64,000 bases of DNA. Origin: a virus. Lineage: Duplodnaviria > Caudoviricetes. The stretch covers positions 1 through 64,000 of IMG/VR virus record IMGVR_UViG_3300033073_000492; one strand, 5' to 3'. Position numbers and translations under genes: made by a program. The notes under the pieces were generated by a model. That model saw only the letters and a program-made list of their open reading frames with translations. It had not been told where the DNA came from and did not search any database. Shown here piece by piece: positions 19,819-20,020 of this stretch (positions within the stretch are counted from its first letter, which is position 1; every line of letters starts with the position of its first letter).

Positions 19819-19819
19819 A

Positions 19820-20008
19820 TCATAAAGAAACTTCTTTGAATACTGGCACACTTTCAGATGCCATTTTAACAAATTCAACATTGGCCGGGAAACTATCTAA
19901 AGTTCCTTTGTGACGCATCATGCTTAACTCAAATGGTCCACGCTCTAACGCATACCAGAACATTTCAGTAGCACCTTTGTCAATTTGTTGTTGAAAATAT
20001 TGATTCAT
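19820..20008 (-). CDS. 62-aa ORF filling the intervening segment of the permuted tmRNA
   Basis: SD-like AAGGAAG starts 1 nt after the CCA end; the TGA stop ends 1 nt before the GGG of the coding piece. Confidence 0.7.
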   Translation of the reverse strand: MNQYFQQQIDKGATEMFWYALERGPFELSMMRHKGTLDSFPANVEFVKMASESVPVFKEVSL

Positions 20009-20020
20009 TAAACTTCCTTA

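What the first reader, a model, noticed from the sequence alone, without database searches (positions are those of the whole stretch)
19819..20020. A protein-coding gene fills the excised spacer of the permuted tmRNA
The 202-nt intervening segment is almost wholly SD plus ORF: CCA-T-AAGGAAG-TTTA-ATG...62 codons...TGA-T-GGGC. This segment is normally cut out during tmRNA maturation (RNase P at the coding-piece 5' end, 3' trimming to CCA). Processing would therefore release or destroy a precisely bounded mini-mRNA, and ribosomes on the ORF could modulate maturation. This is a candidate coupled RNA-processing/expression device, or a mobile cassette targeting the spacer. The protein is not recognisable to me.
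Basis: partly seen in the sequence, partly recalled or inferred. Interest (0 to 1): 0.8.

Follow-up and report, generated by a model that had tools for sequence, protein, structure and literature searches.

The report
Protein gene inside phage tmRNA spacer
In this uncultured freshwater T4-like phage, the stretch of RNA that is cut out when its two-piece ribosome-rescue RNA (tmRNA) matures carries a real, conserved 62-codon protein gene, and related phages use the same stretch, with the same built-in ribosome-binding site and stop codon, as a swappable slot for many other small genes.

Summary
A permuted tmRNA lies on the minus strand (Rfam 129 bits). Its 202-nt spacer (20020..19819) is filled by an SD and a 62-codon ORF. 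The ORF is a real gene: 13 close and 41 distant cluster relatives, dN/dS 0.09 against the nearest free-standing copy, and a confident small alpha+beta fold. Its function is unknown.

New here:
- The "SD" is the 5' strand of an ~10-bp helix at the spacer base that is conserved and covaries in phage permuted tmRNAs.
- The last three codons (VSL) are the 3' strand of that helix.
- The stop codon is the conserved UGAU leader just before the RNase P site.
- The gene therefore sits in a hairpin loop inside one promoter-to-terminator unit.

Most family members are ordinary free-standing phage genes. At least two lineages sit in tmRNA spacers. A syntenic sister phage (L051) has an identical acceptor piece but an unrelated 65-codon cargo. 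All 27 distinct, fully delimited spacers with this SD-helix carry ORFs, from 18 families including a thioredoxin.

This scan has already reported the same layout on at least eight other genomes. I found no paper describing it.

The parts
20092..20120 (-). Sigma-70-type promoter TTGACA-17-TATAGT with a TG extension. It drives the whole pre-tmRNA.
   Evidence: 11 of 12 matches. It is the only promoter-like site on the minus strand in 19400-20400.
20021..20082 (-). tmRNA acceptor piece: T-arm, 3' strand of the acceptor stem (CAGGUCC), and ACCA.
   Evidence: It is 100% identical to the acceptor piece of L051.
19819..20020 (-). Intervening segment (spacer) of the permuted tmRNA gene, 202 nt. It forms a hairpin with the ORF in its loop.
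   Evidence: ARAGORN domain limits. The minimum-free-energy fold pairs its two ends.
20010..20020 (-). 5' strand of the spacer-base helix, UAAGGAAGUUU. It contains the Shine-Dalgarno AAGGAAG (20019-20013).
   Evidence: It pairs with 19823-19833: 11 bp including 3 G.U, duplex -6.0 kcal/mol. The helix is conserved and covaries in 67 phage spacers.
19820..20008 (-). 62-codon gene (ATG at 20008, TGA at 19822-19820) for a small alpha+beta protein of unknown function.
19823..19833 (-). 3' strand of the spacer-base helix, AAGUUUCUUUA. It encodes the C-terminal V-S-L.
   Evidence: Unrelated cargos in the same slot also end in VSL.
19819..19822 (-). Conserved 4-nt leader UGAU before the RNase P site. 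Its UGA serves as the ORF's stop codon.
   Evidence: The leader is TGAT in 46 of 67 unique spacers and TAAT in 8 of 67, whether or not an ORF is present.
19698..19818 (-). tmRNA coding piece: 5' acceptor strand GGGCUUG (G3.U70 pair), the rest of the tRNA-like domain, and the tag frame 19730..19698 (ANDESYALAA, then stop).
19629..19652 (-). Intrinsic terminator (6-bp GC-rich stem, UUCG loop, T run) that ends the unit.

Best explanation
The spacer of this phage's two-piece tmRNA gene serves as a ready-made expression slot, and here it holds an ordinary small phage gene.

Transcription. One near-consensus host-type promoter transcribes, in order: acceptor piece, spacer, coding piece, terminator. 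This suggests early expression.

Structure. In this family of phage tmRNAs the spacer is a hairpin. Its first ~10 nt (right after CCA) pair with the ~10 nt that precede a conserved UGAU leader. In one sub-lineage the 5' strand has become a Shine-Dalgarno sequence (UAAGGAAGUUU).

Translation. Any ORF placed in the loop is translated from the pre-tmRNA, or from the RNase-P-cleaved acceptor-piece-plus-trailer intermediate. It acquires its last residues (V-S-L) from the 3' strand of the helix and stops at the UGA of the leader.

Processing. RNase P cleavage at U|G1 and 3' trimming back to CCA then yield the two tmRNA pieces and discard the message.

Exchange. The cargo is exchanged between phages by recombination in the conserved tRNA-like flanks.

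The protein. The 62-aa product belongs to a small-protein family that is mostly free-standing in arrays of small overlapping phage genes. It most likely acts as a small early accessory or host-interacting protein. Its molecular function is unknown.

Shown: the gene is real and selected; the helix/SD/stop architecture; the single transcription-unit signals; cargo exchange. Inferred: translation, timing, the fate of the excised RNA, and the protein's role.
For: Real gene:
- 13 relatives at 58-92% identity with 27 invariant columns and in-frame indels.
- 41 cluster representatives with a profile search.
- dN/dS 0.09 against the nearest free-standing copy L007, and 0.07-0.3 across the family.
- AF2 mean pLDDT 92.6; BFVD homolog with TM 0.82.

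Slot architecture:
- Helix of median 10 uninterrupted bp in 67 unique spacers with 58 distinct 5' 10-mers, against a median of 4 bp for mismatched partners. Leader TGAT in 46 of 67.
- The window's helix is 11 bp, and the minimum-free-energy fold forms it.
- ORF-bearing spacers have weaker helices: median -7.6 against -12.3 kcal/mol, p=0.0014.

One unit: promoter, terminator, and no internal promoter.

Exchange:
- L051 is syntenic with the window (flanking proteins 51-80% identical). Its acceptor piece is 100% and its TLD 96% identical, but its 65-aa cargo is unrelated.
- L002 and L004 share acceptor piece plus cargo at 91-95% but have unrelated tag regions (27-64%).
- All 27 unique fully delimited spacers with this SD-helix carry an ORF: 21 stop at the leader, 4 stop up to 20 nt earlier and 2 read through. 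They form 18 families, one a thioredoxin (75 bits).

Ordinary gene elsewhere: free-standing with 4-nt overlaps to its neighbours in L003, L007, L008, L009, L132, L133, L139 and L141. Homology to the free copy spans exactly ATG..GAAGT.

Weak RNA hint: a metatranscriptome contig (X6 record 26, 19886-20056) bridges the CCA/spacer junction.
Against: - There is no direct evidence of translation or of processing. The RNA libraries were available only as contigs and may contain DNA.
- Within the spacer-resident clade alone, selection is only weakly demonstrable: dN/dS 0.24-0.69 on 10-19 changes.
- The SD is base-paired in the folded precursor, so translation could be poor.
- The direction of transfer is not resolved. 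In the 47-row tree the free-standing L007 nests weakly (81/72) inside the window clade.
- The helix-energy comparison is not corrected for relatedness.
- The protein's function is unknown, so 'accessory early protein' is a guess from context.
Confidence: 0.75

Rival explanations
1. Translation/processing switch; this adds to the best explanation and does not exclude it. The SD is sequestered by pairing with the ORF's own last codons, the stop codon lies 1 nt from the RNase P site, and the SD lies 1 nt from CCA. Ribosome loading or termination and formation of the tRNA-like domain are therefore mutually exclusive on one molecule. Translation would be limited to a co-transcriptional window before the 3' strand is made, and ribosome traffic would delay tmRNA maturation. 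After RNase P cleavage the message ends 1 nt past its stop codon, so it becomes a near non-stop substrate for the tmRNA just produced.
For: - Geometry read from the sequence.
- The helix is retained, with compensatory changes, in ORF-bearing spacers of different lineages.
- Helices are weaker where an ORF is present.
- Other spacers carry ORFs that run into the mature tRNA-like domain and would lose their stop codon on processing.
Against: - This is purely structural inference; there are no kinetic or expression data.
- The helix and the UGAU leader are equally conserved in ORF-less spacers. They exist for processing, and their use by the ORF may be opportunistic.
- An 11-bp helix with 3 G.U pairs closing a ~180-nt loop is weak (-6 kcal/mol).
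Confidence: 0.3
2. Silent passenger. The ORF was inserted into a tolerant, discarded part of the gene, is not translated to any useful extent, and is on its way to decay.
For: - The spacer is removed from the mature RNA, and its length varies from 4 to over 380 nt in relatives, so insertions are tolerated.
- dN/dS within the spacer clade is higher (0.24-0.69) than in the family at large.
- L140 shows a degenerate tmRNA module around a family member.
Against: - Five distinct spacer-resident copies are all intact, with the same SD spacing.
- The P0016/L171 and P0045 lineages diverged to about 40% identity while keeping the frame and the slot.
- All 27 SD-type spacers have an ORF, and 21 end exactly at the leader stop. 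This is not expected of decaying inserts.
Confidence: 0.08
3. The protein is functionally tied to trans-translation (it binds tmRNA, SmpB, the ribosome or ClpXP/SspB), and that is why it is lodged in ssrA.
For: This family is the commonest cargo of the SD-type slot: 6 of 27 unique spacers, in at least three divergent lineages (window clade, L199, L171).
Against: - Eight family lineages are free-standing among unrelated small genes, next to QueD-like, nucleotidyltransferase or clamp-loader genes.
- 17 unrelated families, including a thioredoxin, use the same slot.
- There is no structural or sequence similarity to any known partner.
Confidence: 0.08
4. Self-mobile element. The cargo actively targets the tmRNA spacer, in the manner of homing endonuclease genes.
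For: Cargo distribution is decoupled from the phage backbone.
Against: The 62-aa protein has no nuclease, integrase or transposase signature, and its predicted fold (a short helix and four strands) matches no nuclease. The captured segment is exactly the ORF. Conserved flanks suffice for homologous recombination.
Confidence: 0.04

Closest known systems
Circularly permuted (two-piece) tmRNA genes: Caulobacter and other Alphaproteobacteria, a betaproteobacterial lineage, Cyanobacteria (Rfam RF04321, RF01850), and phage copies such as OM43 phage Melnitz and pelagimyophages (PMC9004378; PMC11915505)
   Same: Gene order is acceptor piece, intervening sequence, coding piece. The tRNA-like domain has the G3.U70 pair, an encoded CCA and a tag frame ending in ALAA. 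The gene has its own promoter and terminator. In L004 it lies upstream of the gp33-like coactivator gene, as in Melnitz.
   Different: Here the intervening sequence is a translatable gene, and its SD and stop codon are built from the processing hairpin and leader. The database paper reports only a tRNA-Ala gene or a repeat element in such sequences and no protein gene. The RF01850 score (67 bits) is below that model's cut-off of 84.
tmRNA genes interrupted by group I introns, some carrying homing endonuclease genes (PMC11915505)
   Same: A protein gene lies inside a tmRNA gene, in a part that is removed from the mature RNA.
   Different: There is no intron and no splicing. Removal is by tRNA-type end processing. 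The cargo is not a nuclease, and it lies between the 3' and 5' ends of the mature RNA, not in the T-loop.
tRNA-punctuated or tRNA-linked messages (mitochondrial 'tRNA punctuation'; bacterial and T4 tRNA operons with co-transcribed ORFs) - from general knowledge
   Same: An mRNA is bounded by tRNA-like structures, and its ends are set by RNase P and 3' tRNA processing.
   Different: Both boundaries belong to one RNA, whose acceptor stem closes around the message. The SD and the stop are parts of the processing structure itself.
Integron gene cassettes - analogy of logic only, from general knowledge
   Same: Promoter-less small genes of many unrelated families are exchanged at one fixed site that supplies the expression signals.
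   Different: No integrase or attC sites are seen. The site lies inside a stable-RNA gene, and exchange is presumably by homologous recombination in the conserved flanks.

Membership tests
Circularly permuted two-piece tmRNA | Acceptor piece (T-arm, 3' acceptor strand, CCA) encoded upstream of the coding piece (5' acceptor strand, tag frame) | tested here: met
   ARAGORN 'Permuted' call: 3' tRNA domain at gene positions 55-93, 5' domain at 296-322. RF04321 scores 129 bits against 47.
Circularly permuted two-piece tmRNA | Alanine-identity acceptor stem with the G3.U70 pair, and an encoded CCA | tested here: met
   GGGCUUG (19818-19812) pairs with CAGGUCC (20031-20025), G3 opposite U. ACCA is at 20024-20021 (read).
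Circularly permuted two-piece tmRNA | Tag reading frame with an Ala resume codon and a hydrophobic ...ALAA end | tested here: met
   ANDESYALAA followed by a stop at 19730..19698.
Circularly permuted two-piece tmRNA | Betaproteobacterial subtype model RF01850 at or above its gathering score | tested here: inconclusive
   67.2 bits against a cut-off of 84. The match covers only the coding piece, and the 202-nt insert may cost score.
Circularly permuted two-piece tmRNA | Precursor is cut into two pieces that work in trans-translation with SmpB | not testable with these tools
   Needs RNA end-mapping and tagging assays. No SmpB gene is in the 75-kb record, which is only 22% of the estimated genome.
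Bona fide protein-coding gene | Frame kept and purifying selection among relatives, in independent genomic contexts | tested here: met
   Free-standing copies.
Bona fide protein-coding gene | Evidence of translation | not testable with these tools
   Only contigs of RNA libraries were available.
Homing or self-mobile element | Cargo encodes a nuclease, integrase or transposase | tested here: not met
   No Pfam or PHROG family. The predicted fold (a short helix and four strands) has no nuclease match.
Any named protein family for the 62-aa product | Significant match to Pfam, PHROGs, PDB sequences or solved folds | tested here: not met
   (best Z 3.0). The Atlas gave only uninformative neighbours.

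The most novel reading that the evidence does not exclude
The spacer hairpin of these phage tmRNA genes is a dedicated, self-limiting expression device. The SD is locked against the ORF's own last codons, and the stop codon abuts the RNase P site. Each precursor is therefore translated only in a short co-transcriptional window. Ribosomes and RNase P compete for the same molecule. The cleaved message, which ends 1 nt after its stop codon, becomes a substrate of the tmRNA made from it. This would give phages a general plug-in slot that delivers a timed pulse of any small early protein.
Probability: 0.2. Interest if true: 0.85.

Novelty: new variant of a known kind. Interest (0 to 1): 0.68.

Why it matters
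- tmRNA is textbook 'stable RNA', and the intervening segment of its permuted form is treated as waste. Here that segment is a message, and the processing hairpin and leader double as ribosome-binding site, C-terminal codons and stop codon.
- This is a compact example of one transcript serving as both mRNA and stable-RNA precursor.
- It shows a natural, recombination-driven cassette site in phages, with at least 18 cargo families in this one slot type.
- It points annotators to a class of small phage genes that gene callers and tmRNA finders both tend to mishandle. ARAGORN missed the tmRNAs with the longest cargos.
- It offers a tractable system, because the tag is almost that of E. coli, for asking how translation and tRNA-type processing compete on one RNA.

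Tried and rejected
Function of the protein:
- Pfam and PHROGs on the protein and on 39 family members gave nothing.
- A PDB sequence profile search gave nothing.
- Foldseek against the PDB gave no match at E<=0.001.
- VIA-align wide gave a best Z of 3.0.
- The ESM Atlas gave only uninformative neighbours.

Other searches:
- GenBank phage collection: no protein relative at E<2, and DNA matches only to the tRNA-like parts of other phage tmRNAs.
- SmpB in the phage record: none. The record is a 22% fragment, so this says nothing.

RNA runs:
- Only contigs were available, so depths cannot be compared and ends cannot be mapped.
- The contigs X2 record 10 and X3 record 19 span the ORF but have fewer than 31 nt on the flanking sides.
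- The 'joints' that skip 180-212 nt are most likely relatives with other spacers ('between: not known') and were not used as evidence.

Data not available:
Their tmRNA context is inferred only from gene spacing.
- Keiler 2000 and Sharkady & Williams 2004 are not held, so the processing steps are cited through PMC11915505 and general knowledge.

Ideas dropped or qualified:
- I first thought there was a single capture from a free-standing ancestor. A single clade of all spacer copies is rejected (AU p=0.019, with the group named after seeing the C-termini), and the direction is unresolved.
- A direct repeat at the two junctions (AAGGAAGUUU / AAAGAAGUUU) is explained by the wobble-palindromic top of the helix, not by target-site duplication.
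- The L138 contig ends 26 nt after the ORF without a recognisable coding piece, so it counts only as a partial case.
- I did not run complex prediction: I make no binding claim and the host is unknown.

Full report
**The observation**

The window is part of a 74,990-base IMG/VR virus record that CheckV estimates to be 22% complete. Baseplate wedge and hub/lysozyme genes mark it as a large T4-like myovirus. The runs that hold it are freshwater metagenomes.

On the minus strand ARAGORN finds a permuted tmRNA (20113..19607, tag ANDESYALAA). Rfam's tmRNA_permuted model scores 129 bits against a cut-off of 47.

Reading the strand gives: CCA 20023-20021, U, AAGGAAG (20019-20013), UUUA, ATG at 20008, 62 codons, TGA 19822-19820, U, then GGGC from 19818.

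A near-consensus promoter sits just upstream of the acceptor piece: TTGACA-17-TATAGT with a TG extension, at 20120-20092. An intrinsic terminator (19652-19637 plus a T run) follows the tag region. No other promoter-like site lies between them on this strand. The ORF can therefore be expressed only on the pre-tmRNA transcript.

**Is the ORF a gene?**

Chance alone is unlikely: 7 of 5000 dinucleotide shuffles give an ORF this long. The comparative evidence is decisive.

- A search of 5.8 billion proteins finds 13 relatives at 58-92% identity, with 27 invariant columns, a strictly conserved core (MRHKGTLD.FP.N..FV) and only in-frame length changes.
- A profile search finds 41 cluster representatives, all 39-128 aa.
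- Against the nearest free-standing relative (L007) dS is 1.07 and dN 0.097, so dN/dS is 0.09. Across the family it is 0.07-0.3.
- AlphaFold gives a confident small fold, one short helix and four strands, with mean pLDDT 92.6.
- The only structural match is an uncharacterised phage protein in BFVD.
- There is no Pfam, PHROG, PDB-sequence or solved-fold match.

The gene is real and its function is unknown.

**What the "SD" and the stop codon really are**

I collected 118 viral contigs that share the T-arm/CCA motif and ran ARAGORN on them. This gave 81 permuted tmRNA calls with spacers of 4-211 nt.

In 67 unique spacers, the first ~10 nt after CCA pair with the ~10 nt that precede a 4-nt leader.

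- The median uninterrupted helix is 10 bp, and 51 of 67 have 8 bp or more.
- There are 58 different 5' 10-mers, so the pairing covaries.
- Mismatched partners give a median of 4 bp.
- The leader is UGAU in 46 of 67 and UAAU in 8 of 67, with or without an ORF.

In the window, UAAGGAAGUUU (20020-20010) pairs with AAGUUUCUUUA (19833-19823): 11 bp, three of them G.U, -6.0 kcal/mol. The minimum-free-energy fold of the region forms the T-arm, the acceptor stem and this helix.

So the SD is the 5' strand of a conserved processing hairpin. The last three codons (GUU UCU UUA, V-S-L) are its 3' strand. The stop codon is the conserved leader. The gene occupies the loop.

Spacers that carry an ORF have weaker helices than those that do not: median -7.6 against -12.3 kcal/mol, Mann-Whitney p=0.0014, not corrected for relatedness. 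This fits a need for ribosome access.

**Where the gene family lives**

The five distinct copies at 88-92% identity are spacer-resident: the window, L002, L004/5/6, and by gene spacing P0001 and P0003.

Eight other lineages are ordinary free-standing genes in tight arrays of small phage genes with 4-nt start/stop overlaps: L003, L007, L008, L009, L132, L133, L139 and L141.

Nucleotide homology between the window and the free-standing L007 copy (about 85%) runs exactly from the ATG to ...GAAGT. The free copy ends KEVA-stop inside an ATGA overlap. The spacer copy ends KEVSL-stop, using the helix strand.

Very divergent relatives are also spacer-resident:
- L171 and P0016 (about 41% identical to the window protein).
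- L199.
- P0045 in L140.

A tree of 47 sequences puts the window clade with L007 (100/99) and P0016 with P0045 (92/85). It rejects a single clade of all spacer copies (AU p=0.019; the group was defined after I noticed the VSL ends). At least two changes of context are needed, and the direction is not resolved.

**Cargo exchange**

L051 comes from a phage syntenic with the window: the genes downstream of the tmRNA are 51-80% identical in the same order.

- Its acceptor piece is 100% identical, its tRNA-like 5' part 96%, and the stretch up to the tag 80%.
- Yet the loop holds an unrelated 65-codon ORF that also starts 12 nt after CCA and ends ...VSL-UGA-U.

Conversely, L002 and L004 share acceptor piece and cargo with the window at 91-95%, but have unrelated tag regions (27-64%) and, in L004, unrelated neighbours.

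A scan for the exact slot sequence (TCCACCA-UAA[A/G]GAAGUUU) found 102 viral contigs. I could delimit both ends strictly in 36 of them, giving 27 unique spacers.

- Every one carries an ORF of 20 codons or more that starts 8-19 nt after CCA.
- 21 stop at the leader codon, 4 stop up to 20 nt earlier, and 2 read on into the tRNA-like domain.
- They fall into 18 unrelated families.
- One is a clear thioredoxin: PF00085, 75 bits.
- The window's family is the commonest, with 6 of the 27.

In the broader first sample, 15 of 65 unique spacers of 50 nt or more carry such an ORF. These include 23-25-residue hydrophobic peptides and ORFs whose stop lies inside the mature tmRNA.

**How it most likely works**

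Shown: one promoter-to-terminator unit; a real, selected gene in the loop of the processing hairpin; SD, C-terminal codons and stop supplied by conserved tmRNA-precursor elements; modular exchange of cargo.

[quoted passage not shown] On that basis:

- The ORF is translated from the precursor or from the RNase-P-cleaved acceptor-piece-plus-trailer.
- Maturation then removes the message.
- The strong host-type promoter suggests early expression.

The SD is 1 nt from CCA and paired to the last codons, and the stop is 1 nt from the cleavage site. An initiating or terminating ribosome and a folded tRNA-like domain therefore cannot coexist on one molecule. After cleavage the message ends 1 nt past its stop codon. 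Whether this is exploited as regulation is untested. I give that 0.2-0.3.

The only RNA-level hint is weak: a metatranscriptome contig bridges the CCA/spacer junction (X6 record 26), and the library may contain DNA.

**Comparison with what is known**

Phage two-piece tmRNAs are known (PMC9004378). The 2025 tmRNA database paper describes intervening sequences that hold a tRNA-Ala gene or a repeat element, and group I introns with homing endonuclease genes, but no protein gene in the intervening sequence. Four full-text searches found no description of this layout.

Within this scan the same layout has already been reported by other agents on at least eight other genomes. I reached the helix/SD/stop reading and the slot reading on my own data before reading those notes, and my counts agree with theirs.

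I class it as a new variant of a known kind: a permuted tmRNA gene whose spacer is a cassette-type expression slot.

Noticed in passing
window 17856-17929 (-): Rfam calls a tRNA here (43.4 bits) that ARAGORN did not report in the window. First-reader notes give it a CUA anticodon. ARAGORN calls tRNAs with a CTA anticodon ('tRNA-Pyl') near the tmRNA in relatives L011, L142 and L202, so amber-reading tRNAs seem to be common companions of these phage tmRNAs.
   Followed up: no
L140:1431-2150: Tandem arrangement. A degenerate acceptor piece, a spacer with a 76-codon family member (P0045, ending ...VPL-UAA-U) and a degenerate 5' tRNA-like part without a tag region are followed by a second permuted-tmRNA-like gene with an ORF-less spacer and tag ANDSSFALVA. 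ARAGORN calls neither. The expression module may outlive tmRNA function.
   Followed up: partly
L156:213-464 (-): An 84-aa thioredoxin (WCGPC; PF00085, 75 bits) sits in the same SD-helix slot and also ends ...KVSL. ARAGORN misses this tmRNA, probably because of the 268-nt spacer.
   Followed up: partly
L033, L091, L103, L121 (spacers of 98-194 nt): These spacer ORFs start 11-12 nt after CCA but are in another frame relative to the leader. They run 27-37 nt into the mature coding piece (...FRQG-stop), so RNase P cleavage would leave them without a stop codon.
   Followed up: partly
L124, L060, L086, L083 (spacers of 87-93 nt): These spacers hold 23-25-residue hydrophobic, membrane-like peptides that start 13-14 nt after CCA and end at the leader stop. 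Their base helix is reduced to 5-8 bp.
   Followed up: no
all phage permuted tmRNA spacers sampled (L010-L131): The 4-nt leader before G1 is UGAU in 46 of 67 and UAAU in 8 of 67 unique spacers, including ORF-less ones. Why a stop-codon-containing leader is conserved without an ORF is unexplained.
   Followed up: partly
window 39676-55347 (-): A single 5,223-codon ORF lies next to the baseplate genes. It is very large for a phage structural gene.
   Followed up: no
window 17177-17805 (-): By eye, a 42-aa rubredoxin-like protein (two CxxC pairs) and a 166-aa rubrerythrin-like protein lie just downstream of the tRNA. I did not check them against any family library.
   Followed up: no
window 20225-23284 (-): A 1,019-aa protein directly upstream of the tmRNA promoter contains several repeats of an F-D-[YF]-S-W-R-P..P...Y-V-[WF]-G-N motif. 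It has no Pfam or PHROG match.
   Followed up: no
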